In this document: positions 17,808 to 64,000 of the stretch, in pieces
Layout: each line of letters begins with the position of its first letter
How positions within the stretch are numbered: the stretch's first letter is position 1
NCBI GenBank assembly: GCA_024672315.1
Contig: GCA_024672315.1_4714.1
From: a phage
Direction: 5' to 3' (one strand)
Length of the DNA: 64,000 bases
Notes under the pieces: generated by a model
What the model saw: only the letters and a program-made list of their open reading frames with translations
What the model was told of the DNA's origin: nothing
Databases searched by the model: none
Program-made: the position numbers and the translations under genes

Positions 17808-17813
17808 AATATA

Positions 17814-18446: not shown

Positions 18447-18462
18447 GATGTACTCACTACAG

Positions 18463-19830
18463 CTAAACGGTTGGGCGAATGGTGTTGTCTTTTTCTGGTG
18501 CAAGCCATAACGTGACCGTACCATGGCATGTCCACTGTGGTTCACGTACAGAAGAACCTGCCATCGTAACAGCACAATCGGTACGCATGATAACCCCGTA
18601 TGCTTCGCAGAGATTGTTATCCTGCATCCACACGACTTTAGCAGGCATGCCGGGATACAACAAATCCATGTTTGCGTATTCCCACACCAACTGCATTGTT
18701 CTACCGCGTAATCCAGCAGTATTACTTAATTCACGCCATCGGTTATCGGTTACGCGTCCCATCCCTTTCGCCACCTTCACGTTATCGCTACGTTCTTCAG
18801 TTACGTACTCGCTAACGTTTACAGTACGGCTGATTATCGTATCGCCCCCTTTTGATAATGTCATTCCCTGACTCATCTGACTTGCCGAAACAAAACGCCC
18901 ACCCGCATTACCTAACAACGAAGCCGCGTTATTGATGTCGCTTACCGACGCCCCTCTCGTACATGCAATTTCCACGTATTTGTCACGGTTGATCCAAGTC
19001 TTGTCCATGCCCGGAAACATATCGGCAGGATAGTTGTAAAAGATAGCCGTGCGCCGACCGTCAGAGAAACGGGTTTCGTCGTAGAGAGGATAAATATACA
19101 GATACGGAGATTGATAATAACAACCGACGTCCGCCGAATAAATACCGACCTGGTTCTGGATTTTGTCTACGAGATCCATTGCGTTGGTGCCGTGCGGAAG
19201 AATAAGCAACTTGAACAGGTTGTCGTTATTCGGTGCAACAATGTCTACACCCTGCATTTTGAATCCGGTGTCGGCTTCAACCGCAGAAAGTATCTTGCTG
19301 AATTCGAGTCGTAACACATCCAGCACTTTCGACCCGGTATAGTTTTCACCGGTTTCTGATTGCATGAAGCTTTCAAGAACAGGATCGAACAGTTGAAATT
19401 GAAGATCGACCATTTGTTCGTAGTCTTTCTTCGAAGAATCGGTTGCGGTACGTTCGTCGTTAGCAGACATACGACTGTCCACGGTTGTTAAACAAACCGC
19501 CCGATAGACGTAAGCTTGCGCAGCATCGTCTACGGTTTGGCGTTGTCCGCGCATCAGGCTGTACGCCTGCACGATGATGCGCATTTTAAGTTGTTGTTGG
19601 TACGGTAAGATGTATTTTCCGTAACTGCCTGGCGGGAACTTTACAGAGATATAAAGTTCATCTCCTGCATTACGTTCATAGTCTCGATACGTGTGGACTT
19701 GAGTCACTAAAGGAACAGACACCGTCATTGACGGCGTGATTAATTCCGCGGTGACTTTATACGCAACAGCAACTGCTTCCTGCGCAAATGTACCGATGTA
19801 CCGTCCTAACGGCGTCTGTTTGTAATCCAT
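18463..19830 (-). CDS. hypothetical structural-module protein (455 aa)
   Basis: Long ORF; start 2 nt after upstream stop; part of tightly coupled minus-strand operon 17814-23679. Confidence 0.8.
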   Translation of the reverse strand: MDYKQTPLGRYIGTFAQEAVAVAYKVTAELITPSMTVSVPLVTQVHTYRDYERNAGDELYISVKFPPGSYGKYILPYQQQLKMRIIVQAYSLMRGQRQTVDDAAQAYVYRAVCLTTVDSRMSANDERTATDSSKKDYEQMVDLQFQLFDPVLESFMQSETGENYTGSKVLDVLRLEFSKILSAVEADTGFKMQGVDIVAPNNDNLFKLLILPHGTNAMDLVDKIQNQVGIYSADVGCYYQSPYLYIYPLYDETRFSDGRRTAIFYNYPADMFPGMDKTWINRDKYVEIACTRGASVSDINNAASLLGNAGGRFVSASQMSQGMTLSKGGDTIISRTVNVSEYVTEERSDNVKVAKGMGRVTDNRWRELSNTAGLRGRTMQLVWEYANMDLLYPGMPAKVVWMQDNNLCEAYGVIMRTDCAVTMAGSSVREPQWTCHGTVTLWLAPEKDNTIRPTV

Positions 19831-43476: not shown

Positions 43477-43491
43477 AAAACACTCCGTTGA

Positions 43492-43522
43492 CCTAGGTGG
43501 AGGCCAATAACCTCCACCTAGG
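43492..43522. terminator. 12-bp perfect palindrome with 7-nt loop (putative terminator or regulatory hairpin)
   Basis: CCTAGGTGGAGG-CCAATAA-CCTCCACCTAGG in the 80-nt gap between two large minus-strand genes, 16 nt upstream of the downstream start codon. Confidence 0.4.
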
Positions 43523-43557
43523 GTTGAACAACGCGTACGGTTATACGGTACGCACGA

Positions 43558-46350
43558 TTACGCTAATTTACCGAAACCGGCTTTCTGTAGTTTCTCGTTG
43601 ATCAGTTTTGCTTCAGCGAAAACATAATCACGATACGCAGTGACTAATCCATCCACCCGTGAACGCAAGGCTTCTTCGAAGCTATACCACGCAGCGATTT
43701 CACGAATCTGTGCGTTGATATAATCAACGGTTGAGCGAAGCTCGGTTGCGTTTTCTTGCGGGATGGCTTTCACCTGGCGAGCAACGTCATTTAAACGACG
43801 GAACTGTGTTTCGATTTCTTTAAACTTACTGTCGGCAAGTTTGCTGAATTCGTCACCGGAACGGGTAAATAACAGATAGCTGTTGCCGTCAAGTGCGGTT
43901 GCTAACTGCTGAAGTACGTTGGTGTCCGGATACACAGGAGTACCGCTTTGCAGTACTTTCTCACCGAATTCCGCGAAGTCCTTCGGCGGTAAGTGTGCAG
44001 ACGTTGTTAACTCGTTGAAACGGAAAGTCAGCGAATTATCATACAGCATCCGGTACGCTTCCATACCCTGTTTCATAGTACCGGCCAGGTTAGCCAGACG
44101 CGGAGCAATCTCGCCTTCTTTAGCGCGTTTCTGGTCTTCTAACGCCCCTTCGAGTTCTTTACACTGGTCGTTCAGATACACGATACGATCGGGACGCAGA
44201 CGACGCATCTCACGAAGAATAGTATCCAGCTTACCTTCCTGGAAATAACCTAACGTTAATGACGTACACGCTTGCTGAAGACGATCGAACACCGGTAAGG
44301 TCACCATCTCCTTACGGATACCATCAACAATCGCAGAAACAGCCGAAAGTTTCTGTTCGGTGGTTAATGGAACGTCAGAGACCGACTTGCTGGGCGCACC
44401 AACAACGTTACGCATTGCGTCGGTATCCTCGGTTTTATCAACCTCTTTACGAACATGCTCATCAGGAACATAAACGTTCGCGTTACGTTTCGCCTGCTTG
44501 ATGGCGTCGTTGGCCGCTTTTTCGGTGGCTGCTACGCTATCAGCACGTTTCTTCAAGAGTTCAATAATCCAGAGCAACAGACGACGAATCGCAGTATAGG
44601 CCGTCGTGATGATGACACCGATAACAGCCATCTTCATGATACCGAACGATTCCATGGTCGGCTCTAATGCCTGGTCTGGCATATACCGTTCACGCAGTTC
44701 CAGATAGATCTGCTCATCTGGTTTGCTGATCTCACCACGATGCGAAGTCCGATAGATGGCTTCGTCAATCTCAACAAGATCTTTGCGTGCCTGACGATCG
44801 GATTCTGTTAAGTAAGCACAACCGGATACATCATCTTCGAAGCTTAAGAATTTGAAGAAGTCGCTGACATCGATCTTGATCTTCTTCGTTTCATTGTCAA
44901 CGTTAATGAAATCCGTTTTACGAGACTGCTGTTGAATCTTAATATCCTTTATCGGTTTAAGCGCTTTGTCTTTTAATGCCTGCATGATCTGTTTCCAGCT
45001 GGCATCGCGTTCAAGAACAAGGAAATAGTTCTTGAGTTCGAATGCGCGATAGCGGGCAACAAGTTGTTCTACCTGGACATGAGCGAGTTGTACGTCCATC
45101 AGCCAACGCGACAGCGCAGAAACCAAACGGCTATACGCAAGCAGCGTCTGGTACGTCAGCTTCATGTGTTTCTCGTAGAGCTCGATGTCTCCGCCCTGGA
45201 TGTCGGCTGTCGGGTTCATTTCCTTCGTTGCTTTGAAGACTTGTTCGGCTTCATTCAGCATCTGCTCGAACTTGACTTCATTGAACGCGTTGAATGGTTC
45301 GGCCAGTTCGTTCATCCGATCGTGCAGTTCGCGAACCCAAGCTTCTTTGTGATTACGAATGACCGCATCAGCGTGGAGTTCGGTTTGATGTTTCTGTACC
45401 CATTCTTCAATGATATCCGCAGCTGCAACAACGCCCGTGTTGTCAGAAATCAATGGAATGACGTTAGAGAGCGTACCCGCACATGCTGGTGTTTTCCAAT
45501 GATCGTTAAGCGTGTTGCGGAACGTAATGATGTCCGTCATAGACGTAGTGATATCGAGGAACGTGTTACCGTTACGACTCATGCTTGTGATGTTTGTGGC
45601 AAACGTCTTTTGTTGTTCTACAACGAATGGAATCAACGCCATCAACCAATCAGCAATACATTTTGCTTTTTCTTTCAGGTTTTTGTCGGCGATTTCTTTG
45701 AGATTAATTGCGCCGCCGTAACCTGCAAGTTCGTTATACACATCGTTCAAGGTCATCTGCGCGTCAAGCATTTCTTTGAAACGCGGATAATCTTCCCCTA
45801 ACGCATCGATGATATCCTGGATAACGTCGTCGGTTGTAGCGATAAATTTCTTCGTGTCGACTTTAGATTTCCAGATTATTTTCACCGCTTCTTTCATAAC
45901 GGTGAACATGATCTGCCAAATACGCTTAATAAGTTCCCAGACTTTCTTCGCACCATCGACAAACAGTTTAGAGACCTTGGCAACGAATCCTTCCTGCACC
46001 AATTCAACGCCGTTACGTGATGGGATTTCCGTGAAGAAAGCATCCGGCAGTTGTTTCGGGAATGCGTCACCAAGACGCATACGTAGTTCCGGTACATCAG
46101 CACGAGAAATACCGCGTGTTACTAATTGTTCGTGAAGACGAACGTTTTCTTCACCGGCAGCCACGAATTCGTCAACATCGAAGGAGACCATTGTTTCCTG
46201 ATCTTCGGTGGTAACGACGCTTGAACCATCGCTGGTCTGGATGTCCTCGTCAGGGAACGCCATGAGCATACCGTGACGCATTTCAACCACTCCGTAATCG
46301 GTTGCTAAACCGAATTCGTTGTGATCGGGGGTAATAACTGGAATACTCAT
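43558..46350 (-). CDS. large hypothetical protein (930 aa) with paralog-family N-terminal region and internal hydrophobic segment
   Basis: AAGGAG RBS 7 nt upstream of ATG; N-terminal region alignable by eye with the 28-34 kb paralogs (AKKVWELIKRIWQIMFTVMKEAVKIIW); hydrophobic stretch MKMAVIGVIITTAYTAIRRLLLWIIELL. Confidence 0.8.
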   Translation of the reverse strand: MSIPVITPDHNEFGLATDYGVVEMRHGMLMAFPDEDIQTSDGSSVVTTEDQETMVSFDVDEFVAAGEENVRLHEQLVTRGISRADVPELRMRLGDAFPKQLPDAFFTEIPSRNGVELVQEGFVAKVSKLFVDGAKKVWELIKRIWQIMFTVMKEAVKIIWKSKVDTKKFIATTDDVIQDIIDALGEDYPRFKEMLDAQMTLNDVYNELAGYGGAINLKEIADKNLKEKAKCIADWLMALIPFVVEQQKTFATNITSMSRNGNTFLDITTSMTDIITFRNTLNDHWKTPACAGTLSNVIPLISDNTGVVAAADIIEEWVQKHQTELHADAVIRNHKEAWVRELHDRMNELAEPFNAFNEVKFEQMLNEAEQVFKATKEMNPTADIQGGDIELYEKHMKLTYQTLLAYSRLVSALSRWLMDVQLAHVQVEQLVARYRAFELKNYFLVLERDASWKQIMQALKDKALKPIKDIKIQQQSRKTDFINVDNETKKIKIDVSDFFKFLSFEDDVSGCAYLTESDRQARKDLVEIDEAIYRTSHRGEISKPDEQIYLELRERYMPDQALEPTMESFGIMKMAVIGVIITTAYTAIRRLLLWIIELLKKRADSVAATEKAANDAIKQAKRNANVYVPDEHVRKEVDKTEDTDAMRNVVGAPSKSVSDVPLTTEQKLSAVSAIVDGIRKEMVTLPVFDRLQQACTSLTLGYFQEGKLDTILREMRRLRPDRIVYLNDQCKELEGALEDQKRAKEGEIAPRLANLAGTMKQGMEAYRMLYDNSLTFRFNELTTSAHLPPKDFAEFGEKVLQSGTPVYPDTNVLQQLATALDGNSYLLFTRSGDEFSKLADSKFKEIETQFRRLNDVARQVKAIPQENATELRSTVDYINAQIREIAAWYSFEEALRSRVDGLVTAYRDYVFAEAKLINEKLQKAGFGKLA

Positions 46351-46787
46351 GCATTCTCTCCTTGCAGTGCGTTAGCGAAAGCTGTTGCAAGTTGTGCAAC
46401 CAGTTTCGGATCGACGCCTTCGATAACGTCAGGAAGCCCTGCGGTTTCTTGGTCACGAACAGCAGCTGCTAATAACAGCATGGTTTCAGGTGCGGTCGGC
46501 TCATGCACCATGCGGTAACGCAGGCACCAGAAGTAGCGAGCAACGTCTAACGCATCAGCCAGCCCAATAACCAGTACCTTGTTCAGCTTATCCAACCCTT
46601 CACGGATTTTAGGGAGATGCTCGCGAACGAAAATGCTATCTGCGGTCAGATCTTCTTTTTCAGCGAATACCGGCATGCTGTAACCAGCAATGTAACCTGC
46701 GGCAATACTTAATGCGCGGGTCTGTTGTTCGGCCGGGAAATCACGAACCAGGTCTTTCAGCTGAACGGCGAAATCAGAAATATTCAT
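46347..46787 (-). CDS. hypothetical protein (146 aa)
   Basis: AAAGGA RBS; overlaps downstream gene start by 4 nt. Confidence 0.65.
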   Translation of the reverse strand: MNISDFAVQLKDLVRDFPAEQQTRALSIAAGYIAGYSMPVFAEKEDLTADSIFVREHLPKIREGLDKLNKVLVIGLADALDVARYFWCLRYRMVHEPTAPETMLLLAAAVRDQETAGLPDVIEGVDPKLVAQLATAFANALQGENA

Positions 46788-52546: not shown

Positions 52547-52999
52547 TTATCCCTTGTTGGATTCGTCAATATACTTGGTGTCGTAAGACAAATGCTGAAT
52601 TAATTTTCTAGGTCTGATGAATATACGACATGTGATAAACACATCAGGATCGTATTGTTCCACGCAACGTCCGAAGGCTCGTTTTGCGGACTGACGCATC
52701 AAGGTTAATTCCTGATCGTTCATCTCATCATCAAATTCGATGTGTATCGTGATTTTATCGGGAAATAAATAGATAGAGTAGTCGCTACCGATATCACCGT
52801 CGTCAAAACGATAATCGTTGTGGTAATGGTGGAGTTTACCTTCGTGTATCGTCTGGTACCACCCGACGATACTATCAAGACCCATACCCAGGCGTCCGAA
52901 TGCCTGATTAATAATATCTTCGACGATGGATGCGGGTGTGGGACCATTGAATAGACGATCTAAGCGCTTTTTCATCGATTTGTCGGTTTTCATGTTCAT
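52547..52999 (-). CDS. hypothetical protein (150 aa)
   Basis: ORF with ATG and AGGA RBS. Confidence 0.65.
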   Translation of the reverse strand: MNMKTDKSMKKRLDRLFNGPTPASIVEDIINQAFGRLGMGLDSIVGWYQTIHEGKLHHYHNDYRFDDGDIGSDYSIYLFPDKITIHIEFDDEMNDQELTLMRQSAKRAFGRCVEQYDPDVFITCRIFIRPRKLIQHLSYDTKYIDESNKG

Positions 53000-53037
53000 T
53001 GTTTCTTTTCCTGTGTAGTCGGTATACAGCCCTTCCC

Positions 53038-53073
53038 CGGCCTTGATGGCTAGGGAAGGGGCTATGCTACGTT
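53038..53073. terminator. GC-rich stem-loop, repeat-family member
   Basis: AGCCCTTCCC...GGGAAGGGGCT with inner GCC/GGC stem; TATG downstream. Confidence 0.35.
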
Positions 53074-53074
53074 G

Positions 53075-53473
53075 TTATGCTTCGCAATCAGCTGAAGGCG
53101 TCGCGCCTTTCTTACCAGCGATACGCCAAATCCGACACGCTGGGTAATGGTTAACCTCTAGAGAGCAAGGAATGTTATATTTCTCTTCCAGCGCATAAAG
53201 ACATTTCGTTAGCTGCTCCAGCGCGTTCTCGTCGTGTCGTAACGCGTGGTGGCCTAATCGATGTTGGTCGTTCTTTATATACGCCTCGAAGAGAACATGT
53301 TGGCGATGTACGCTGACGTTTACAGCCTCGAGTATAGCTTGGTCGAGCATACGACTAAAGCACATCAACGAGTCAGATACGTTTTCTCGCTTAACCAGAT
53401 CGATCATGGTGGGAATATACGAATGGTCGATGTTATCGATGACCGCTTTAGCGACGGAATCAGCAACGTTCAT
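53075..53473 (-). CDS. small hypothetical protein, paralog pair member A (132 aa)
   Basis: Start moved to ATG at 53473 (MNVADSVAKAVIDNIDHS...) with AGGGA RBS, which aligns with the paralog N-terminus MSIVESIVKAVNDNIDHP; shared EEKYNIP-SLEVN motif. Confidence 0.7.
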   Translation of the reverse strand: MNVADSVAKAVIDNIDHSYIPTMIDLVKRENVSDSLMCFSRMLDQAILEAVNVSVHRQHVLFEAYIKNDQHRLGHHALRHDENALEQLTKCLYALEEKYNIPCSLEVNHYPACRIWRIAGKKGATPSADCEA

Positions 53474-53509
53474 CTTTTTAATCCCTAGTTTGTTATTGAT
53501 CACGTATAT

Positions 53510-53905
53510 TTACTCTTTGACGTCAGTTGTCGTTTCGACATGCTTCTCACTACTGACGTACCAGAGCAGGTACGTTGGGAAAAGATTGACCTCTAAGCTA
53601 AATGGGATATTGTATTTCTCTTCCATTTTACAGAGATGTTCTTTAAGTAAATTTCTCGCGTCTCTGTCACCACGAACAGAGTGCCAGTCTAGTTCTTTGT
53701 TCTCCTTTACCAGGACCTCTACGATGATACGTTGCTCGTGAACCTCGGTTTTCACAGTGAAAAGTAAATCGCTGCTATCAAAACGGGTAAAACGAATGTA
53801 TGAACCAGGTGTTTTTTCTTGTTTGATAATATCGATCATGGTAGAAATGCGCGGATGATCGATGTTGTCGTTAACAGCTTTAACGATGGATTCTACAATG
53901 CTCAT
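53510..53905 (-). CDS. small hypothetical protein, paralog pair member B (131 aa)
   Basis: AAGGAT RBS; paralog of 53075-53473. Confidence 0.7.
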   Translation of the reverse strand: MSIVESIVKAVNDNIDHPRISTMIDIIKQEKTPGSYIRFTRFDSSDLLFTVKTEVHEQRIIVEVLVKENKELDWHSVRGDRDARNLLKEHLCKMEEKYNIPFSLEVNLFPTYLLWYVSSEKHVETTTDVKE

Positions 53906-53938
53906 TTTTTTATCCTTAATGTTATCGATTTGTAAATA

Positions 53939-54706
53939 TTACTTATTTTTGCTTTCTTTATAGACAGTTGTTACCCACGATGGGAAAGCCGGATGGAAAC
54001 AGAGCGTGAACGTAACTGTCGTATCGTATTTAAACGCACAGTTCACTAACCGGGTATCGAACGTTTTCCTTAGACCATCATCATCGTTATCGATGACAGC
54101 CATATCTCTTAATATCCCAAGCACGTTAACGCCGTCGAGTGTCTGGGTTACAACAAGTCGTCGTAATGGCCCGCATGTATAGTTACGTACAAATCCTTTC
54201 TTCGGGTCCGATACCCTGTTTAACGCATCGTGATTTTTGATGAATTCATCGGCGATCCAATAGATTTGTTCCCTTGCTTTATCGGGATCGTATTCTGCTA
54301 ATAGTTCCTTCGTGTCGAACGTTATCACGTTATTATCATTCGATTCAGAAGGGAAACATAAAACTAAACGAACAGGGTATTCGTATTGATCTGTTCTTGT
54401 TTCGAAAGCATTAGCTAAACACGGCTTGTATGCCTTTGCGTCGACATTGTCCAAACATGGATGCAATAATGCGTGAATAACGGCACCATCGTCAGTTAAA
54501 CCGAATTCCAGAAATTGTACCCTATCAGTATCCGCTACGGTTTTCTGAAGATACGCTTTACCGTTTACGATATCGGTATCCCACATATCGTCGTTTAACG
54601 ATTCTTCAAACTTATCGAATATATGGTTTACGAGATTGACGAGTTCATCAATACGGCACTGTTGGTTGAATTCGATTAATCGCTGAACTTTATCTTTGAT
54701 AGACAT
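53939..54706 (-). CDS. hypothetical protein, probable member of tandem paralog array (255 aa)
   Basis: AAGGGG RBS; segment VDAKAYKPCLANAFETR...PVRLVLCF resembles VDAIRRLADVANNAFTKS...PITLTLKF of the next gene. Confidence 0.65.
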   Translation of the reverse strand: MSIKDKVQRLIEFNQQCRIDELVNLVNHIFDKFEESLNDDMWDTDIVNGKAYLQKTVADTDRVQFLEFGLTDDGAVIHALLHPCLDNVDAKAYKPCLANAFETRTDQYEYPVRLVLCFPSESNDNNVITFDTKELLAEYDPDKAREQIYWIADEFIKNHDALNRVSDPKKGFVRNYTCGPLRRLVVTQTLDGVNVLGILRDMAVIDNDDDGLRKTFDTRLVNCAFKYDTTVTFTLCFHPAFPSWVTTVYKESKNK

Positions 54707-54708
54707 GA

Positions 54709-55167
54709 TTACCCCTTAGCTCCTTCTTCGTCTGGAGAGTATTCCATCGTGTAGAATTCATAACCGTCGGAAAACTTGAGTGTTAATGTAATAGGGAAAT
54801 CGCACGGCATAGCTGATTTCGTAAATGCGTTATTAGCAACATCCGCCAACCGACGTATAGCATCAACCCCGCTGACGCTGAATGGTAGTTGTATGTTGAT
54901 AAGGATACGATGCTTGTAAACATAGAAAACAACGGTACTGTCAAGATAAACGCTATGAAACGGTATTGTTGGGATGCGTTCCACGATGGTAAAATACGTG
55001 CCGTCATTATCGCTATGTCCCATCGACCAAATATCGGATTTACGTAGATTTTGTTTGAGGGATTCGATACTTCGAGTGACGGTCTCAGCAACAGGCGTGA
55101 CGTAAGTGTCTCTATGCGAGTCGAAAAGTTCGTTGACGTTAGATTCGAATGAATACATTGTTGCCAT
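54709..55167 (-). CDS. small hypothetical protein, tandem paralog (152 aa)
   Basis: AAGAGG RBS; start overlaps upstream stop by 1 nt (TAATG); shares LPFSV-G motif with 55167-55628. Confidence 0.7.
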   Translation of the reverse strand: MATMYSFESNVNELFDSHRDTYVTPVAETVTRSIESLKQNLRKSDIWSMGHSDNDGTYFTIVERIPTIPFHSVYLDSTVVFYVYKHRILINIQLPFSVSGVDAIRRLADVANNAFTKSAMPCDFPITLTLKFSDGYEFYTMEYSPDEEGAKG

Positions 55168-55628
55168 TATTCTACCTCTTTCTTCATCTTCATCGGAACA
55201 GAGAGTGCTGTTATCTCTGTTCCATTATCCGGTTCATACTCCAATGTAACGAGATTGCAGCCATCCGATAATTCATAATCGATCGCTAGGGGGAACGAGA
55301 TACCGTGCGACTTTATGCATTTACCAAATGTCTCGTTGGCTGTATACATTAGAAGTTGCTTTGCGGCAAGCCCGTTTACGCTGAAAGGTAATTGTGCTGT
55401 CGCAGCGATACGATTATTGTAAACTCTGATATCGGTGATATCTACAATCGTAGCATTGCCGTGTTGTGTTGTTGGAACGGATAGGTTGTAGAAGTAAGGT
55501 TCGGAGTCGGAATCGGACTCATTAAATAATTCCCAGCATCCGTCCTCCTGCAATCTTACCTCGAGTATTTCAAAGCTTTTAATTATCGATTCTACCAGCT
55601 GCTCACCGTAAGAATCCCACGTCGTCAT
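55167..55628 (-). CDS. small hypothetical protein, tandem paralog (153 aa)
   Basis: ATG with AAGGTG upstream; paralog of 54709-55167 (AQLPFSVNGLAAKQLLMYTANETFGKC vs IQLPFSVSGVDAIRRLADVANNAFTKS). Confidence 0.7.
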   Translation of the reverse strand: MTTWDSYGEQLVESIIKSFEILEVRLQEDGCWELFNESDSDSEPYFYNLSVPTTQHGNATIVDITDIRVYNNRIAATAQLPFSVNGLAAKQLLMYTANETFGKCIKSHGISFPLAIDYELSDGCNLVTLEYEPDNGTEITALSVPMKMKKEVE

Positions 55629-55699
55629 TTTTTAACACCTTCGACACCTTTTAACCGATACGTGTCCCACCTAACAAGGGACACGATATCGTCGATTAA

Positions 55700-56194
55700 T
55701 TACTCTTCTGTGTTTTCATTGTCAGGATCGTAGTGGAATTCGAACAGCCCTGAACCGTCGTGTCCGTTGATTGTTAGTATAACTGGCATATCGAATCCTC
55801 GGACGCGCGAATGAAAACACTGTGCTAATTTTAGTTTGGCGTATGCCGCTATTTCATTGACGGCAATACACGACTCACCTGTTATACTCAGTATAACGTC
55901 GATACTAACAATGTTGTCGTGCAACGCAAAACGCCAGCGATCGATACGATTATTATCTTTAGCAGCTGTCTCGTTTACGAGATAGACTTTATCGTCAACC
56001 GACAAAGCAGGTCTCCAGCAACTGTTGTTCCTTAAATTCGCCTCGAATCGCAGCATCGTTGTGTCGATAATATCCCAACATGCAACTAGTACGGTATTGG
56101 GCACTAAATTGAGAAGAGCTGATACCCTATCCTTTATTTTAAGTGCTTCCGCAGGACGCCCGCAAATACCATGCATTTCAACTTTCTTATCCAT
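55700..56194 (-). CDS. small hypothetical protein, tandem paralog (164 aa)
   Basis: Start moved to ATG at 56194 with AGAGGTG RBS (ORF-track GTG start 56200 rejected); C-terminal region similar to neighbouring paralogs. Confidence 0.65.
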   Translation of the reverse strand: MDKKVEMHGICGRPAEALKIKDRVSALLNLVPNTVLVACWDIIDTTMLRFEANLRNNSCWRPALSVDDKVYLVNETAAKDNNRIDRWRFALHDNIVSIDVILSITGESCIAVNEIAAYAKLKLAQCFHSRVRGFDMPVILTINGHDGSGLFEFHYDPDNENTEE

Positions 56195-56237
56195 ATTCAC
56201 CTCTTTTTTAATCTAAATGTTAGTTGGGATAGGGCGA

Positions 56238-58849: not shown

Positions 58850-60151
58850 TTAACTAATATAAAGTTCAGGATCGTAAGGCGCTAACGATACACTGGCGTT
58901 ATGCATTGCTTTCATCATAGTGTTCATGAAAACGTTGTTTACACCGGTGATCTCTGCCCCGATCGCATCTGGGGTTGGAGCCATCGCGTTACCGCAACAG
59001 GTAGCACAGTATTCCAATGGGCCTGCTTTACAACGTTGAGGATCACGTAACTTGATGGTTTGTCCTTCCAAGGAAGCGAGTAATTCAGCATCGATAAGTT
59101 TAAGAGCCGCGCCGTCGATCATGTAACGGCCGACAAGCAGCTTATCTTTGATGTGGTCGCGGTTTACCGTGAAAAGAATATGCTCGTGGGTACCGCAGTC
59201 GTCCATCGTGATTTTAAGGTTCTGTGTCGCACGTTGTGATTCTTTCGCCGTCTGTCCAGCTAAAGCGGTCAACGCACCACGTGAGAACGAACCGGCACGT
59301 GCACTGTTGTTGTACTCCGCCCAATGGTCGACACGCATCCCTTCGGCCAGGCTGTGTGTGATAACGTTACGTTTACCGGGGTCAACGAAGTCGGCTTCAA
59401 CCCCCATCATGATGTGCGTTTTCTTTCGAGTATTACCGAAACTCTTGCCTGGGTTAATATAGAACCCTTCCGACTCATCGCCCTTAAAGGATTCCTTATC
59501 CATTTTGGTTAGCGTGGCTTCGAGTTTGATCAGTTCTTCAGGCGTGAACTTACCTTCCTCTTGTAAGCGCGCCAACTCTTTATCACGATAGGCAATAATA
59601 TCATCATCGACCGTTAACGCTTTATCACTCATTGACGGGACAATTAAACGGTTGATAGCGGTTAATGCGCTGATATTGTTGGTGAATTTCTTCACTTCGC
59701 TTGCGTACAACGGACCAATAGGACGTTCATTAGGATCGGGTATTCCCTCTTCGGGATCGTCCGCTACGCGTGGCGCAATCAGTGACTCCAGTGTGCCGCT
59801 GGTCAACCGTCCTGCCTGATATTCAATCTGAATACCGAAAGCATCATAAAGGACGTACATATTGAACAACGCTTCACCGAAGGTTGTGGTGGTTGTGTTC
59901 TTAACCGACGGTAAATCGCCAGGTGCGAGCTCCAACGGCTCCCAGAAACTCAACAAGGGTTTTGTTGGCTCGGTTTCCCATTGGTGTTCTTCACCGTCGA
60001 TGGTAACCGTAACGACGTTACCTTGACGACGTAATTTAGGCTGATACTTCTCAGCGCCGCCTTCCGTAAAAGCAAATGCGTCGTTAATCCATTCAAGATA
60101 TCGGTAGTGCCCTTCACGCATCGCGTAAAGGAAATATTCACGAGGTGTCAT
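58850..60151 (-). CDS. hypothetical protein (433 aa) with C-terminal cysteine cluster
   Basis: AAGGAG RBS 7 nt upstream of ATG; C-terminal cluster CKAGPLEYCATCCGN. Confidence 0.75.
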   Translation of the reverse strand: MTPREYFLYAMREGHYRYLEWINDAFAFTEGGAEKYQPKLRRQGNVVTVTIDGEEHQWETEPTKPLLSFWEPLELAPGDLPSVKNTTTTTFGEALFNMYVLYDAFGIQIEYQAGRLTSGTLESLIAPRVADDPEEGIPDPNERPIGPLYASEVKKFTNNISALTAINRLIVPSMSDKALTVDDDIIAYRDKELARLQEEGKFTPEELIKLEATLTKMDKESFKGDESEGFYINPGKSFGNTRKKTHIMMGVEADFVDPGKRNVITHSLAEGMRVDHWAEYNNSARAGSFSRGALTALAGQTAKESQRATQNLKITMDDCGTHEHILFTVNRDHIKDKLLVGRYMIDGAALKLIDAELLASLEGQTIKLRDPQRCKAGPLEYCATCCGNAMAPTPDAIGAEITGVNNVFMNTMMKAMHNASVSLAPYDPELYIS

Positions 60152-60164
60152 GTAACAACTCCTT

Positions 60165-61037
60165 TTAAACCCGGGTCAGGTCACCGTGACGTGAAACGAA
60201 CTCTGATAACGCTCGGGTTGCTTCTTTGGATTCTTCAGCCATCGGGAAGTTTGCGGTAATAAGTTCTCGTAAGACAGGGACGAGTTCGTTATCTTCGAGA
60301 TCGGAAGCTAAAGCGAATGCGATCAGTTCTTGGGTGTATGCATACGGTTGCTGACGTAATGTAGTAAGCTGATCCCGACACTGCGCCATCAGCAGGTCCA
60401 GTGGAACCGCTATCGTACCCCCTTCATCAATATACTGGCTGAACACCGGTGGGAACGCATCACTGATGACACGAATACGTCGACGGATGCGATCAGGAAT
60501 CTGGATGTTTTCCTCGTCGACTACGTTCTCGCTGTCTTTCTCCAGCTTCTTGGTCAGCACCTGCTGAATGCGTGGAAGCAAGCTTGAATGCACGAAACTG
60601 ATTAATGGGGTTACATTCGCAGCATCGACGCCGTAAATGTGTCGCGTACATTCTGCTAACGCTTCAGCTGCGGTGTAGTCTTCATCTTCAACGATAGCGA
60701 GTAGAAAAGCGGTATCGTCGTGTGTTTCCAGGTCTAATAACGTAGACGCCAGCGCGTGAAGATATTTCAGGCTATCCAGAGATAGTTGCCCTTCGTTAAT
60801 TCGGATCCCGAAGGCAAGCAATTGTTGTTTATAAAGTTCGATACATCCGTTTGTTAAAATGATATCTAATTCGTTTAAATCGTATTGTTCCCCAGCACCC
60901 GACAACATCGTACTGCAGAACGTTTCCAGTTGTTCACATTTAAAATCTTGGTATAAACGATGCATGCAGTGCTGTAACAGCGTACGCCTTGTTTCAGGGA
61001 TCTTACCTTCTAACAAAGCCAAGACGGAATCAATCAT
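60165..61037 (-). CDS. hypothetical protein (about 290 aa)
   Basis: Start moved to ATG at 61037 with GGAG RBS (ORF-track GTG start 61043 rejected). Confidence 0.7.
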   Translation of the reverse strand: MIDSVLALLEGKIPETRRTLLQHCMHRLYQDFKCEQLETFCSTMLSGAGEQYDLNELDIILTNGCIELYKQQLLAFGIRINEGQLSLDSLKYLHALASTLLDLETHDDTAFLLAIVEDEDYTAAEALAECTRHIYGVDAANVTPLISFVHSSLLPRIQQVLTKKLEKDSENVVDEENIQIPDRIRRRIRVISDAFPPVFSQYIDEGGTIAVPLDLLMAQCRDQLTTLRQQPYAYTQELIAFALASDLEDNELVPVLRELITANFPMAEESKEATRALSEFVSRHGDLTRV

Positions 61038-61133
61038 ATCCACTCCGATGCGGTAAATGTCTACTAGCTCTCATAATCTATTGAAGAAACTACCGGCTTA
61101 CGCCAACTTAGATTAATCAGGAGTAACCATCCC

Positions 61134-61607
61134 ATGCCAGTTTCATCCAAACCAAGAAAAAAATCCGTAGGAAACCCTAAAGCTCAGGAAACAACAGCAA
61201 TTCGTTGGGACGAGTTACGCGAACCTATCGAAAACTGCGAATTGTTATTAGGCACCCTGGGTGCGGCTATTTACCAAGCGACGCAGCCCTGTCGTTTACG
61301 ATTAACCCAAAACAAACGTGATGAGTTCGTTGCGTTATCAACAAGTACGAATAAAGATCTGACCGAACTTCAAACCGAGTTGACGACGATCAAGAACTCC
61401 ATCACACCGATGTACGGTAAAGAAGTTGATGAACAAAGTATTCTGTTACAGTACAACTACGGGATGTCGTTAATGAACATCCTGGAACGCGCATCCGATA
61501 TTCTGCGTCCTGACGTTGCACGCCTGAGCCAACTGCGTGTTGAAGGGATGGAGAACCAGATCCGATTCGCTAACAGTGTTAAATCTCAAGGAGCCACCGA
61601 AGCATGA
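61134..61607 (+). CDS. hypothetical protein (157 aa)
   Basis: ATG with AGGAG upstream; stop overlaps next start (ATGA). Confidence 0.7.
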   Translation: MPVSSKPRKKSVGNPKAQETTAIRWDELREPIENCELLLGTLGAAIYQATQPCRLRLTQNKRDEFVALSTSTNKDLTELQTELTTIKNSITPMYGKEVDEQSILLQYNYGMSLMNILERASDILRPDVARLSQLRVEGMENQIRFANSVKSQGATEA

Positions 61608-63289
61608 GCGAACAAGAAAAAGAAGTCGTGACGAATCAGGAAGCCGTTGAGCGTTCAGAGTCGTCCGCTGAAACAACGATTCCGGCAAGTTCCGATCCTG
61701 TTGGTTCCGCACAGCAGGAAAGTAAAGACGAAGTAAACACTACTAAAGAAGATGTAGTGGCTCCAGAAGCAACCCGTGAAGAAGAACCGTCACATCCGCC
61801 GTTGGTCGATTTCTCGAAGGCAACGATACGTTTCCAATGCGAAGACATTCGTCCTAAGAGTCCGAAGAAAACAAAACGCCAGCCGCTGGTGTTACCGCTG
61901 TATTCTCCGCGTGTACAGACAACGTATTACCGGGAATACATCAACGAAGCAATGGATACCGTACAAGCCATTGTCGCTCAACGCGGTAAACCGACAGACG
62001 AACAGTTTGATAAATTCAGTAAAGCGGTGGTGCAATCGGTTGCTGATGGTCAATACCATCCGCGTGGTCCAGCTCACGATCGCGCGTTGGAACGTAAGGG
62101 CAGTCAGTGGACTAACGTACCCGTAGACTCATCGGGTGTTGGTCGCGTTATTCCAGGCATTCCGCAACCGAACCATATTCCTGATGATGTCGAAGCGCCG
62201 CTGACAGGAACCGATGCGATCTATTTTGCTATCCGTAATACGAAATCAGGCGCACCTGCGGTAATGCCGTTATGGCATAGCGGTATTAAGCTGCAGTTCA
62301 ATCCGCCGTCAAATGAACGTGTTGCTATTATGCACGAACGTATTGCACGCGATAAAATCCTGGGTGGACGTGATAGCACCGGTTTCCTGTTTTCGGCAAC
62401 CTCGATTATCACCATGAAGCATGCTATCGAATTAGCATTAGAATGCTGTTACATGGCCAACGTACCGAACCTGGATATCCAGCGTTTGAAAGACATTATT
62501 CCGGTTACCGATGTTCCGGCGTTGTTGTTGAACGTGCTGGTAACCATGTACCCGTACGGATATCCTTACGTACAGACCTGCTATCAGAATCCAGAAACCT
62601 GCGACTATCGTGTCGAAGATACCGTAAGCTTTGCGAAACTCTATCAAGTTGACAACAGCGCAATTACCAAACGTATGCGACAGATCATGACCGAAGGTCC
62701 GGTCATGACCGATGAACTTTTGCGTGAGTATGCAAACGAGCTGGGTGAAACGAACTCCCGTACGCTGGATCTGTCCGACAACGGTTCTGTTATCATTGAA
62801 CTCGAAGTACCGAAGATCTCACGACAAATCGCCATGGGTGAACGTTGGTTAAGCGATACGCTGGAAGATCTGCGTGATATTCTATCGCGTCCGTCAATGA
62901 CCGAAGAAGAACGTGATCGTGTTATTCGTGAACGTCAGTTCTATAGCTGGATGCGTCAGTATGATGCGTGGATCAAATCTATGCATGTATCGGTAAACGG
63001 TACTATGCGTCGTGTAAGCGATGCAGATACGGCAACGGTATTAGCGCAGCTGTCTCGTGACAGCGACCTTCGTGAACGTTATATCGATGGGTTGATGCAA
63101 TTCATCGGTGATTCGACGATTGCGCTCGCAGCAATGCCTGCCTGGAAATGTCCGAAATGTAATGCCGATATTGCTGACAATCTGCGTGACCAGAAATACT
63201 ACGATCTGATTGCTTTGGATGTACCCCAGCTTTTTTTTACCCTAAACTCCGTCCAATCTCTTCAGGAGGGGATGGACGCGGTATTCTAA
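61604..63289 (+). CDS. hypothetical protein (561 aa); possibly continues by frameshift into 63352-63711
   Basis: AAGGAG RBS; translationally coupled to upstream gene; T8 tract at 63231-63238 lies in a 100-nt region where this frame and the -1 frame are both open. Confidence 0.75.
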   Translation: MSEQEKEVVTNQEAVERSESSAETTIPASSDPVGSAQQESKDEVNTTKEDVVAPEATREEEPSHPPLVDFSKATIRFQCEDIRPKSPKKTKRQPLVLPLYSPRVQTTYYREYINEAMDTVQAIVAQRGKPTDEQFDKFSKAVVQSVADGQYHPRGPAHDRALERKGSQWTNVPVDSSGVGRVIPGIPQPNHIPDDVEAPLTGTDAIYFAIRNTKSGAPAVMPLWHSGIKLQFNPPSNERVAIMHERIARDKILGGRDSTGFLFSATSIITMKHAIELALECCYMANVPNLDIQRLKDIIPVTDVPALLLNVLVTMYPYGYPYVQTCYQNPETCDYRVEDTVSFAKLYQVDNSAITKRMRQIMTEGPVMTDELLREYANELGETNSRTLDLSDNGSVIIELEVPKISRQIAMGERWLSDTLEDLRDILSRPSMTEEERDRVIRERQFYSWMRQYDAWIKSMHVSVNGTMRRVSDADTATVLAQLSRDSDLRERYIDGLMQFIGDSTIALAAMPAWKCPKCNADIADNLRDQKYYDLIALDVPQLFFTLNSVQSLQEGMDAVF

Positions 63290-63351
63290 TCGATCCGCGA
63301 TACGGGTTACACGACGGACAACTTGTTCGTAATGATGAAAAAATCTGGGAA

Positions 63352-63711
63352 TTGCTGTTAGCGCGTAAAGGCGACGGTGGCATGAAACTGAACATCGAAA
63401 TGGGTATTGCGTACGACACCATGTTTGGCTTGTACGACCGTGTTAACGAATGGACACCGTTGAAATGGGTTGCTCAGCATCCCGCTGAAGATCCCTGGGA
63501 CAGATTAGGGATTAAACCCTTAATCGAGGATTATGTTCGATTCGGTATTAAAGAGTTCATGACGCTGGATGCGTTTTTAAAAGCACCGTATCCTTACGCG
63601 CAAACGGTACTCAAAATCGCACAAGACGAACTGCGGAAACGTAGTGCGGTACTGGACGACGATGAGGACAAGTTACGACGAGAAGAAGAACGTTTACGAA
63701 ACGGAAAATAA
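63352..63711 (+). CDS. hypothetical ORF (119 aa); possibly the C-terminal part of a frameshifted fusion with 61604-63289
   Basis: Frame open from 63190 to 63711 with no ATG or RBS near the ORF-track TTG start; overlaps the end of the preceding ORF in the -1 frame. Confidence 0.45.
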   Translation: MLLARKGDGGMKLNIEMGIAYDTMFGLYDRVNEWTPLKWVAQHPAEDPWDRLGIKPLIEDYVRFGIKEFMTLDAFLKAPYPYAQTVLKIAQDELRKRSAVLDDDEDKLRREEERLRNGK

Positions 63712-63712
63712 A

Positions 63713-64000
63713 ATGGCGAGATTTACCAGTTTGATTGGGTTGGATATTTGGGAAACACCGGCTGACGTTCGGGTTATTCCTGTTAACACCGTCGGTGTGA
63801 TGGGACGTGGTCTTGCTAAGCAGGCAGCCGATCGTGTGCCCGGTCTTCTTGAAGCGTACCGTAAGCAATGTCAAGATGGGTTTAAGGTGGGCGAAGTCGT
63901 GTCATATCAGCATGGCGAGAACGATCAGCTCACCTACGTGTTGTTTCCATCAAAATCGGATTGGCGCGAAAAAACACGACGTGAGTATATCGTTAATGGT
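63713..64000 (+). CDS. macro-domain protein, TARG1/DarG-like (partial; continues beyond window end)
   Basis: N-terminus ...ADVRVIPVNTVGVMGRGLAKQAADRVPGL... matches the x-V-M-G-x-G-[IL]-A glycine-rich ADP-ribose-binding motif of TARG1/DarG-type macrodomains (from memory); ATG 1 nt after the upstream stop. Confidence 0.5.
   Translation, partial: MARFTSLIGLDIWETPADVRVIPVNTVGVMGRGLAKQAADRVPGLLEAYRKQCQDGFKVGEVVSYQHGENDQLTYVLFPSKSDWREKTRREYIVNG

What the first reader, a model, noticed from the sequence alone, without database searches (positions are those of the whole stretch)
63713..64000. Macro-domain (TARG1/DarG-like) protein at the window edge
Seen: the partial ORF begins MARFTSLIGLDIWETPADVRVIPVNTVGVMGRGLAKQAADRVPGL, which matches the glycine-rich ADP-ribose-binding motif of TARG1/DarG-type macrodomains. 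Established: such domains bind or remove ADP-ribose, and DarG reverses DNA ADP-ribosylation by DarT. Inference: a candidate counter-defence against host ADP-ribosylation-based immunity (for example DarTG) or a regulator of phage ADP-ribosyltransferases.
Basis: partly seen in the sequence, partly recalled or inferred. Interest (0 to 1): 0.6.

Follow-up and report, generated by a model that had tools for sequence, protein, structure and literature searches.

The report
Phage AdfM anti-DarT macrodomain, truncated

Summary
The ORF is real. [quoted passage not shown] The fragment is 92/96 identical to Goslar gp83, which is annotated as a macro domain-containing protein. It is specifically a DarG-type macrodomain: PADLOC DarG 1.9e-17, NCBIfam antitoxin_DarG 6.5e-17, and the best solved structures are the T. 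aquaticus and M. tuberculosis DarG macrodomains. TARG1 and Poa1p are much more distant. The catalytic Asn and Lys (N25, K81) are invariant and lie inside the window. The protein is an orphan macrodomain of 169 aa with no DarT-binding domain and no adjacent darT. This family was published in 2026 as AdfM (Morgan et al., Cell Reports). PhiKZ gp104 removes DarT2-made ADP-ribose from DNA, is imported into the phage nucleus, and is needed to resist DarTG2. Goslar gp83 is named in that paper's alignment but was not tested. Novelty: already known. Interest: low. In passing, the window carries a 210-aa ORF absent from Goslar that has an ADP-ribosyltransferase-like R-S-E motif set.

The parts
63713..64000 (+). 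N-terminal 96 codons (of a predicted 169) of an AdfM-family orphan DarG2-type macrodomain, ortholog of Goslar gp83. The gene is cut by the window end.
   Evidence: Translation. 92/96 aa identical to Goslar gp83, with 11 synonymous and 4 non-synonymous codon differences. 38% identity and pairwise E 1e-20 to PhiKZ gp104 AdfM. PADLOC DarG 1.9e-17. NCBIfam antitoxin_DarG 6.5e-17.
63785..63817 (+). Codons 25-35 (NTVGVMGRGLA): the catalytic Asn N25 (63785-63787) followed by the glycine-rich ADP-ribose/phosphate-binding loop 1.
   Evidence: N25, V27, G28, V29, M30, G31, G33 and A35 are invariant in alignment A1 of phage homologs plus the Taq and Mtb DarG macrodomains. N25 aligns with TaqDarG N22 and PhiKZ AdfM N23; the N23A mutant has reduced activity (PMC13309987).
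63953..63955 (+). Codon K81 in FPSKSDW: the predicted catalytic lysine.
   Evidence: Invariant column in A1. Aligns with TaqDarG K80 (FPTKKHW) and PhiKZ K78, the active-site residues named in PMC13309987 Fig. 1C. See also the HMMER alignments.
63662..63712 (+). In-frame upstream extension (17 codons from ATG 63662), used as the start in the Goslar record and in the Logan gene call P0001. Probably not translated as part of the protein.
   Evidence: It overlaps the upstream gene, whose stop is at 63709-63711, by 50 nt. PhiKZ gp104 and P0002 start at the position equivalent to 63713.
63969..63974 (+). A6 homopolymer inside the gene (codons E86-K87-T88). It is one base shorter in an otherwise identical public contig, where the gene is frameshifted.
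   Evidence: L007 (Logan SRR22550193) matches the window at 730 of 731 aligned positions, and the single gap is in this run. In Goslar the run is interrupted (AAAGAA).
61134..63711 (+). Three co-directional upstream genes (orthologs of Goslar gp080, gp081, gp082). The macrodomain gene is the last of a tightly packed four-gene + strand block. This is context, not a functional partner.
   Evidence: ORFs 61134-61607, 61604-63289 and 63352(63382)-63711. Goslar annotation shows a terminator straight after gp083. No Pfam or PADLOC hit to DarT or any ART; only PHROGs of unknown function. No sigma-70-like promoter or terminator between the genes. None of them matches the PhiKZ gp104 neighbourhood.

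Best explanation
The ORF encodes the N-terminal 57% of an AdfM-family protein (anti-DarT factor, macrodomain). [quoted passage not shown] By homology it is a DNA ADP-ribosylglycohydrolase. The host DarT2 toxin ADP-ribosylates thymidines in TNTC-type motifs of single-stranded phage DNA, which blocks replication and packaging. This enzyme binds the ADP-ribose through its glycine-rich loops and hydrolyses the base-ribose bond using the conserved Asn25/Lys81 pair, restoring unmodified DNA. Unlike the bacterial antitoxin DarG2 it has no DarT-binding domain, so it works only as an eraser. By analogy with its PhiKZ, PhiPA3 and Asesino homologs it is probably imported into the phage nucleus, where the DNA is. 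What is shown here: the sequence, DarG-type family assignment, conserved catalytic residues, orphan architecture and orthology to Goslar gp83. What is inferred: the enzymatic activity, DarTG2 specificity and nuclear localisation of this particular protein.
For: The window is 94-98% identical and collinear with Goslar, and Goslar is nucleus-forming (PMC11895373). The fragment is 92/96 identical to Goslar gp83, with an 11:4 synonymous to non-synonymous codon ratio indicating purifying selection. The fragment alone hits DarG-specific models: PADLOC 1.9e-17 and NCBIfam NF048014 6.5e-17. In the PDB the DarG macrodomains are best: 7e-15 by single sequence and 4e-44, 5e-40 and 2e-35 by a profile containing no DarG sequence, against TARG1 at 2e-12. 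An AF2 model of the 55%-identical full-length relative P0002 (pLDDT 72.5) gives Foldseek ranks 1-4 of TaqDarG, TaqDarG+ADPr, MtbDarG and Thermosipho DarTG. N25 and K81 are invariant. The fragment shares 38% identity with PhiKZ gp104. For gp104, in-vitro removal of DarT2-made ADP-ribose, rescue of DarT2 toxicity, 3-6 log sensitisation of deletion mutants to DarTG2, and nuclear import are published, and Goslar gp83 is listed among the homologs (PMC13309987). An independent macrodomain AdfM in E. coli phage T4 (Tk.4) counters E. coli DarTG2, showing that the defence is relevant in this host (bioRxiv 10.1101/2025.11.20.689424). The DarT2 motif TNTC is not avoided in the window (2418 observed, 2314 +/- 47 expected), so the DNA is a full target. 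A near-identical contig supplies the rest of the gene: 169 aa, ending with the second glycine loop and no extra domain.
Against: Neither this protein nor Goslar gp83 has been tested; only PhiKZ, PhiPA3 and Asesino homologs were, and identity to PhiKZ gp104 is only 32-38%. The C-terminal 73 residues are outside the window and are inferred from L007 and Goslar. In the Goslar lineage the second loop reads GSGCGNIG where DarG has GAGNGGL and most homologs have GCGLGGL, and there are two lineage-specific insertions, so substrate preference could differ. The structural test used a 55%-identical relative with a shallow 5-sequence alignment, and confidence around both active-site loops was low (residues 26-32 and 81-85 had pLDDT < 50). 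Nuclear import depends on co-evolved surface features and cannot be read from sequence. The only other sampled copy of this exact allele is frameshifted.
Confidence: 0.85

Rival explanations
1. It is an eraser of a different ADP-ribosylation. It would act on protein (TARG1-like Glu/Asp-ADPr) or RNA ADP-ribose, either countering another ART-based defence (for example the mRNA ADP-ribosyltransferase CmdTAC) or balancing a phage-encoded ADP-ribosyltransferase.
For: TARG1 is a detectable relative (profile E 2e-12; Foldseek rank 7) and shares the catalytic lysine position. The Goslar lineage has a variant second loop and insertions. The window carries a candidate ART-like ORF at 17814-18446 whose R, S-x-T and Q-x-E motifs are conserved in homologs, with weak DRAT hits in 3 of 4 family members. 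ART-based defences other than DarTG exist (PMC11618068, listed).
Against: DarG models outscore TARG1 by about 30 orders of magnitude. According to PMC13309987, this phage macrodomain aligns best with bacterial DarG2 macrodomains, which act only on DNA. The ART-like ORF lies 45 kb away, is absent from Goslar and had no tblastn match in any PhiKZ-type phage record, yet both phages keep the macrodomain, so it is not an obligatory partner. None of the neighbours tested (window gp078-gp082 orthologs and Goslar gp084-gp085) matches any Pfam family, and gp080-gp082 match no PADLOC model, so no ART is seen among them.
Confidence: 0.07
2. It is a housekeeping Appr-1''-p phosphatase (Poa1p-like) or O-acetyl-ADP-ribose deacetylase that clears NAD-derived by-products of RNA repair or sirtuin reactions. 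This is what the legacy annotations imply ('Appr-1-p processing', 'phosphatase', cd02901 Poa1p_like).
For: The Goslar record cites cd02901 Macro_Poa1p_like. PHROG 335 is labelled 'phosphatase' (4.5e-18). Many phage homologs are annotated as Appr-1-p processing proteins. P0003 is named O-acetyl-ADP-ribose deacetylase by its source.
Against: Poa1p itself is only a distant match: 8.5e-7 with the profile that includes DarG fragments, not within 1e-3 with the non-circular profile, and Foldseek rank 40. The labels are inherited names, not tests. A family member has demonstrated DNA de-ADP-ribosylation and an anti-DarTG2 phenotype.
Confidence: 0.04
3. It is a non-catalytic ADP-ribose or nucleotide binder (a sponge for NAD-derived immune signals), or an inactive or decaying gene in this lineage.
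For: Macrodomains can be pure readers. The one other sampled copy of this allele (L007) has a frameshift in the A-run. The family is non-core, found in about half of chimalliviruses, and the ASO screen lists PhiKZ 104 under the non-core genome, with knockdown reducing ChmA accumulation but causing no substantial CFU or PFU change.
Against: Both catalytic residues and both glycine loops are conserved. The 11:4 synonymous to non-synonymous ratio against Goslar argues for selection on the coding sequence. The window's own frame is intact to the last base. The single-base homopolymer difference in a short Logan contig may be an assembly or sequencing error.
Confidence: 0.03

Closest known systems
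AdfM (anti-DarT factor macro) of chimalliviruses: PhiKZ gp104, PhiPA3 gp108, Asesino gp217, Goslar gp83 (Morgan et al., Cell Rep 2026, PMC13309987)
   Same: A stand-alone macrodomain of about 165 aa in a nucleus-forming jumbo phage. 96% identical (92/96) to Goslar gp83 and 38% to PhiKZ gp104 over the fragment. It has the same N-terminus, the same catalytic Asn/Lys and the same glycine loops.
   Different: It is an allelic variant, with 5 substitutions over 169 aa relative to Goslar gp83. The Goslar-lineage protein itself is untested. It has insertions and a GSGCGNIG second loop compared with PhiKZ. The gene neighbourhood is not shared with PhiKZ.
DarG2 antitoxin of the DarTG2 toxin-antitoxin system (T. 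aquaticus 5M31/5M3E, M. tuberculosis 5M3I, Thermosipho DarTG 7OMU)
   Same: This is the closest solved fold and sequence family. The catalytic N22/K80 equivalents are conserved, and the same chemistry is predicted: hydrolysis of thymidine-linked ADP-ribose on ssDNA.
   Different: It matches only positions 7-146 of the 338-position DarG model and scores 62-81 bits against the 250-bit equivalog cut-off. It has no C-terminal DarT-binding domain and no adjacent darT. It is encoded by a phage and used against the host system rather than for self-immunity.
T4 AdfM (Tk.4), macrodomain anti-DarTG2 factor (HIDEN-SEQ preprint, bioRxiv 10.1101/2025.11.20.689424)
   Same: An orphan macrodomain in an E. 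coli phage, structurally similar to the Mtb DarG macrodomain. Its deletion sensitises the phage to E. coli DarTG2.
   Different: It comes from a non-nucleus-forming T-even phage. Its sequence relationship to the Goslar-type protein was not tested here, and T4-like phages did not appear among the listed tblastn hits (60 of 182 records listed).
AdfN (NADAR-domain orphan antitoxin of T4-like phages; PMC11825919), and AdfA/AdfB
   Same: AdfN uses the same strategy: the phage carries an orphan copy of the antitoxin's eraser domain to reverse DarT DNA ADP-ribosylation.
   Different: AdfN has a NADAR fold and is specific for guanine-ADPr made by DarT1, and it does not counter DarTG2. AdfA and AdfB are direct DarT inhibitors, not enzymes.
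Human TARG1/OARD1 (4J5Q-4J5S) and yeast Poa1p (6LFQ-6LFU)
   Same: They share the macrodomain fold, and TARG1 shares the catalytic lysine position. They belong to the same broad macrodomain class.
   Different: They are much more distant: TARG1 2e-12 against DarG 4e-44, and Poa1p only 8.5e-7 with profile A1 and absent below 1e-3 with A2. Their substrates are protein-ADPr, O-acetyl-ADPr or Appr-1''-p rather than DNA-ADPr.

Membership tests
AdfM (chimallivirus DarG2-like orphan macrodomain) | Significant sequence homology to the characterised member PhiKZ gp104 | tested here: met
   Pairwise BLASTP gives 38% identity over 96 aa and E 1e-20 for the fragment, and 32% and E 1e-25 for the full Goslar ortholog. 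The fragment is 92/96 identical to Goslar gp83, which the paper lists as an AdfM homolog.
AdfM (chimallivirus DarG2-like orphan macrodomain) | Conserved active-site Asn (PhiKZ N23 / TaqDarG N22) and Lys (K78 / K80) | tested here: met
   N25 and K81 are invariant columns in alignment A1. Both lie within the window, at 63785-63787 and 63953-63955.
AdfM (chimallivirus DarG2-like orphan macrodomain) | Stand-alone macrodomain with no DarT-binding domain | tested here: met
   This cannot be seen in the window itself because the gene is cut. The contig L007, identical at 730/731 positions, and Goslar both give a 169-aa protein followed by a stop, and Goslar has an annotated terminator after it. DarG model coverage is 7-146 of 338.
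AdfM (chimallivirus DarG2-like orphan macrodomain) | Encoded by a nucleus-forming (chimalli-) phage | tested here: met
   The window is collinear with Goslar at 84-98% identity. Goslar forms a phage nucleus (PMC11895373). The chimallin gene itself is not in the window.
AdfM (chimallivirus DarG2-like orphan macrodomain) | Removes DarT2-made ADP-ribose from ssDNA and protects the phage from DarTG2 | not testable with these tools
   Shown for PhiKZ gp104 and PhiPA3 gp108 only. This needs an enzyme assay and plaque assays.
AdfM (chimallivirus DarG2-like orphan macrodomain) | PicA-dependent import into the phage nucleus | not testable with these tools
   Import depends on co-evolved surface residues of the folded protein and has no linear motif. 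Localisation was shown for the PhiKZ, PhiPA3 and Asesino proteins, not for Goslar.
DarG (type II toxin-antitoxin antitoxin, NCBIfam NF048014 / PADLOC PDLC02990) | N-terminal DarG-type macrodomain | tested here: met
   PADLOC 1.9e-17 for the fragment and 3.4e-22 for the ortholog. NCBIfam 6.5e-17 and 7.5e-23. PDB and Foldseek top hits are DarG.
DarG (type II toxin-antitoxin antitoxin, NCBIfam NF048014 / PADLOC PDLC02990) | C-terminal DarT-binding domain and full-length equivalog score | tested here: not met
   Only model positions 7-146 of 338 are matched, scoring 61.8 and 81.3 bits against a 250-bit cut-off. The protein ends at residue 169.
DarG (type II toxin-antitoxin antitoxin, NCBIfam NF048014 / PADLOC PDLC02990) | Adjacent darT toxin gene | tested here: not met
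   The three upstream genes have no PADLOC or Pfam DarT/ART hit. In Goslar the gene is followed by a terminator and convergent genes with no Pfam hit.
Pfam Macro (PF01661) | Score at or above the gathering threshold of 22 bits | tested here: met
   The fragment alone scores 18.6 bits, below threshold. The full-length Goslar ortholog scores 24.5 bits and the protein reconstructed for this lineage scores 26.0 bits.
TARG1/OARD1-type macrodomain | Closest sequence or fold relationship to TARG1, and the catalytic Lys84/Asp125 pair | tested here: inconclusive
   TARG1 is a detectable but clearly second-tier relative (2e-12 against 4e-44; Foldseek rank 7). The lysine position is conserved (K81). The Asp125 equivalent lies beyond the window and was not examined.
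Poa1p-like Appr-1''-p phosphatase (cd02901, the legacy annotation) | Closest relationship to Poa1p | tested here: not met
   Poa1p (6LFQ-6LFU) reaches only 8.5e-7 with profile A1, does not appear below 1e-3 with profile A2, and is Foldseek rank 40.

The most novel reading that the evidence does not exclude
The Goslar-lineage protein is not a simple functional copy of PhiKZ AdfM. It has a variant second glycine loop (GSGCGNIG) and two lineage-specific insertions. In this particular phage it also co-occurs with an acquired ART-like gene (17814-18446). It could therefore have a shifted or broadened substrate range, for example the E. coli DarT2 motif variants, another nucleic-acid ADP-ribosylation, or the products of the phage's own candidate ART, which would make a phage-encoded writer/eraser pair.
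Probability: 0.06. Interest if true: 0.55.

Novelty: already known. Interest (0 to 1): 0.15.

Why it matters
It matters little as a discovery. The gene's 97%-identical ortholog is annotated in RefSeq as a macro domain protein and is named as an AdfM homolog in a 2026 paper that established the family's mechanism. The value here is confirmation: a tool-free reading of 96 codons predicted the correct subfamily and the correct biological role. There are small residual points of interest. The E. coli/Goslar branch of AdfM has not been tested experimentally, although E. coli DarTG2 is a working anti-phage system. This Goslar-like variant would be a natural system for asking whether the phage-nucleus plus AdfM synergy seen in Pseudomonas also holds in E. 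coli.

Tried and rejected
(1) The homolog search with the 96-aa fragment in the 5.8-billion-protein index returned only 5 proteins. That was enough to get a full-length relative but too shallow for a deep alignment.

(2) The profile search of the PDB with A1 was circular, because A1 contained DarG fragments. I repeated it with A2, which holds phage and metagenome sequences only, and the ranking was the same.

(3) I looked for a conserved gene neighbourhood with PhiKZ gp098-gp116. Nothing but the macro gene matches.

(4) I looked for a partner toxin or ART among the neighbours with Pfam, PADLOC and PHROGs, and found none.

(5) A sigma-70 promoter and terminator scan of 60900-64000 found nothing useful, as expected for a phage that uses its own RNA polymerases.

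(6) TNTC motif avoidance: the motif is not depleted and is if anything slightly over-represented.

(7) The ART-like ORF at 17814-18446 gave no Pfam match for the window protein and no PDB match by sequence or 4-sequence profile. The single-sequence AF2 model was unusable (pLDDT 35.6), so no fold search was run. Only weak DRAT hits in 3 of 4 homologs (best E 0.013) and the motif conservation remain.

(8) The weak DUF7242 match at residues 4-56 (19.4 bits, below GA 27) was not pursued. It overlaps the macrodomain's N-terminal strand and glycine loop, and probably reflects a macro-like region in that family.

Full report
**Observation.** Window 63713-64000 (+) is an open frame of 96 codons that runs off the end of the window. 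It starts one base after the stop codon (63709-63711) of the upstream co-directional gene. A second in-frame ATG lies at 63662.

**Where the window comes from.** Bases 60000-64000 are 95.3% identical to Escherichia phage vB_EcoM_Goslar (NC_048170, 89227-93206). The rest of the window is collinear with Goslar at 84-98% identity, with a few insertions. [quoted passage not shown] The ortholog of the ORF is Goslar gp083 (YP_009820768.1). RefSeq already annotates it as "macro domain-containing protein", weakly similar to phiKZ ORF104, and it is followed by a terminator. The fragment is 92/96 identical to gp083. The codon differences are 11 synonymous and 4 non-synonymous, which is the pattern of a gene under purifying selection.

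**Which macrodomain.**
- The generic Pfam Macro model is only marginal on the fragment (18.6 bits, gathering score 22). It passes on the full Goslar ortholog (24.5 bits).
- DarG-specific models are far stronger, even on the fragment alone: PADLOC DarG 1.9e-17 and NCBIfam NF048014 antitoxin_DarG 6.5e-17.
- Among solved structures, a single-sequence search puts the T. aquaticus DarG macrodomain (5M31/5M3E, 7e-15) and the M. tuberculosis DarG macrodomain (5M3I, 1e-12) first. TARG1 does not appear at all.
- My first profile (A1) contained DarG fragments and was therefore circular. I repeated the search with a profile of phage and metagenome sequences only (A2). It gave DarG 4e-44 and 5e-40, the Thermosipho DarTG fusion 2e-35, TARG1 2e-12, and nothing for Poa1p below 1e-3.
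- An AlphaFold2 model of the 55%-identical full-length relative P0002 (pLDDT 72.5, pTM 0.74) gives the same order in Foldseek: ranks 1-4 are DarG/DarTG structures, TARG1 is rank 7, and Poa1p is rank 40.

The legacy "Poa1p-like / Appr-1-p processing / phosphatase" labels are inherited names for a distant relative.

**Active site and architecture.** I aligned the fragment with Goslar gp83, P0002, PhiKZ gp104, three metagenomic relatives and the two DarG macrodomains. The invariant columns are V24, N25, V27, G28, V29, M30, G31, G33, A35, P43, Y49, G60, K81, W84 and G96. N25 and K81 correspond to TaqDarG N22/K80 and PhiKZ N23/K78, which are the active-site residues (PMC13309987 Fig. 1C). Both are inside the window.

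The DarG models are matched only over positions 7-146 of 338, and the scores (62-81 bits) are far below the 250-bit equivalog cut-off. The protein therefore lacks DarG's C-terminal DarT-binding domain. None of the neighbours tested (window gp078-gp082 orthologs and Goslar gp084-gp085) matches any Pfam family, and gp080-gp082 match no PADLOC model, so no DarT or other ART is seen among them. This is an orphan eraser domain, not a toxin-antitoxin module.

**The missing C-terminus.** A 981-bp contig from a public run (Logan SRR22550193; L007) matches the window at 730 of 731 aligned positions. The only difference is one A fewer in the A6 run at 63969-63974, which frameshifts the gene call P0001. 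Taking the window's A6 gives a 169-aa protein that is 164/169 identical to Goslar gp83. It carries the second glycine loop (PPVGSGCGNIGYG) and scores 26.0 bits on Pfam Macro. PhiKZ gp104 (MAEF...) and P0002 (MANF...) align from their first residue with MARF.... This supports the ATG at 63713 over the upstream ATG that the Goslar record and the Logan gene call use.

**What is known.**
- Morgan et al. (Cell Reports 2026, PMC13309987) named this family AdfM (anti-DarT factor macro).
- PhiKZ gp104 removes DarT2-made ADP-ribose from a TNTC oligonucleotide in vitro, and the N23A mutant is impaired.
- It rescues E. coli from DarT2 toxicity and is imported into the phage nucleus.
- Its deletion makes PhiKZ and PhiPA3 3-6 logs more sensitive to DarTG2 systems, with ADP-ribosylated phage DNA accumulating and packaging blocked.
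- Goslar gp83 is listed by accession in their Fig. 1B alignment, but only the PhiKZ, PhiPA3 and Asesino proteins were tested.
- Independently, a T4 macrodomain (Tk.4, also named AdfM) was found to be required for resistance to E. coli DarTG2 (bioRxiv 10.1101/2025.11.20.689424). The target defence is therefore relevant in the host of Goslar-like phages.
- The window fragment is 38% identical to PhiKZ gp104 (pairwise E 1e-20).
- The family is accessory. It occurs in about half of chimalliviruses, is listed as non-core in PhiKZ, and its gene neighbourhood is not shared between this window and PhiKZ.
- tblastn finds relatives in 182 phage records. These include PhiKZ-like, SPN3US-like and Erwinia jumbo phages, and also ~77-kb phiEco32-like podophages.

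**Mechanism (shown versus inferred).** Shown here are DarG-type family membership, the conserved catalytic Asn and Lys, the glycine loops, the orphan architecture, and orthology to Goslar gp83. Inferred from family members is the mechanism. The enzyme hydrolyses thymidine-linked ADP-ribose placed on single-stranded phage DNA by host DarT2. It probably acts inside the phage nucleus and thereby neutralises DarTG2 abortive defence. In keeping with reliance on an eraser, the DarT2 motif TNTC is not avoided in the window (2418 sites against 2314 +/- 47 in shuffles).

**Rivals.**
- An eraser of protein or RNA ADP-ribosylation, or a regulator of a phage ART (0.07).
- A Poa1p-like phosphatase or deacetylase (0.04).
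- A non-catalytic binder or a decaying gene (0.03).

These are disfavoured by the large gap between DarG and the other macrodomain classes, by the conserved catalytic residues, and by the published phenotypes.

**Verdict.** The feature is already known: it is an allelic variant of an annotated gene that is cited in the paper defining the family. Interest is low (0.15). The untested points are the activity and localisation of the Goslar-branch protein and whether its variant second loop changes specificity.

**Noticed in passing.** The window has a 651-bp insertion relative to Goslar, between the gp047 and gp048 orthologs. It carries a 210-aa ORF (17814-18446, minus strand). Its motifs LYRG, SFT(D/T) and Q-x-E are conserved in homologs from three other jumbo phages, and three of the four family members hit Pfam DRAT weakly (best E 0.013). 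No Pfam match for the window protein, no PDB match, and no usable structure model could be obtained. The ADP-ribosyltransferase reading therefore rests on motifs only.

Noticed in passing
window 17814-18446 (-), within the insertion 17813-18463: A 210-aa ORF sits in a 651-bp insertion relative to Goslar, between the orthologs of gp047 and gp048. It has an R-S-E-like ADP-ribosyltransferase motif set: LYRG (R84), PVSFTDT (S123/T125) and SQREY (Q182-x-E184). These motifs are invariant or conserved in homologs from Erwinia phage pEa_SNUABM_54, Shewanella phage SXP01 and phage KpYy_2_45. Three of the four family members weakly hit Pfam DRAT (best E 0.013). The window protein has no Pfam hit, there is no PDB hit, and the single-sequence AF2 model was unusable.
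   Followed up: partly
window 63969-63974; L007:695-708: The A6 run inside the macrodomain gene is A5 in an otherwise identical public contig (Logan SRR22550193, 730/731 positions). That frameshifts the gene after residue 87 and gives the truncated call P0001. It is either a homopolymer sequencing or assembly error, or a natural knockout allele. Goslar has AAAGAA at this position.
   Followed up: yes
window 63662 vs 63713; L001:9642 vs 9693: The Goslar RefSeq record (and the Logan gene call) start the macrodomain gene at an upstream ATG. This adds 17 residues and overlaps the preceding gene by 50 nt. Homologs from PhiKZ and a metagenome begin at the position of the second ATG (MAxF...), so the deposited start is probably too long.
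   Followed up: yes
window 52547-56200 (-), especially 53075-54706: There is an array of small co-directional genes of about 130-255 aa on the minus strand. It includes obvious tandem paralogs: 53075-53503 and 53510-53905 share ...VKAV.DNIDH....TMID... and ...EEKYNIP.SLEVN... The stretch 53084-54722 has no counterpart at the corresponding Goslar position (gp070-074 region), so the array is expanded here. There are no Pfam hits.
   Followed up: partly
window 42394-46663: This is the most divergent stretch relative to Goslar. 42394-43177 has no blastn match, and 43178-46663 is only 83.8% identical with 82 gap positions. It corresponds to the region of the large Goslar genes gp064/gp065 (hypothetical proteins). 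Elsewhere identity is 94-98%.
   Followed up: no
phage records H29, H40, H43-H50, H58-H61: DarG-type macrodomain homologs (30-37% identity) are also present in ~77-kb phiEco32/SU10-like E. coli podophages, which do not form a phage nucleus. They are mostly annotated 'Appr-1-p processing enzyme' or hypothetical. They may be further untested anti-DarTG2 factors outside the chimalliviruses.
   Followed up: no
window 63722-63880 (residues 4-56 of the fragment): There is a recurrent sub-threshold match to Pfam DUF7242 (profile positions 177-229 of 248; 18-19 bits, gathering score 27), and to PHROG 2808. It overlaps the first strand and the glycine loop, and suggests that DUF7242 contains a macro-like segment.
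   Followed up: no
whole window: The DarT2 target motif TNTC is not depleted and is slightly over-represented: 2418 sites on both strands against 2314 +/- 47 in dinucleotide-preserving shuffles, with 1 of 100 shuffles reaching the observed count.
   Followed up: yes
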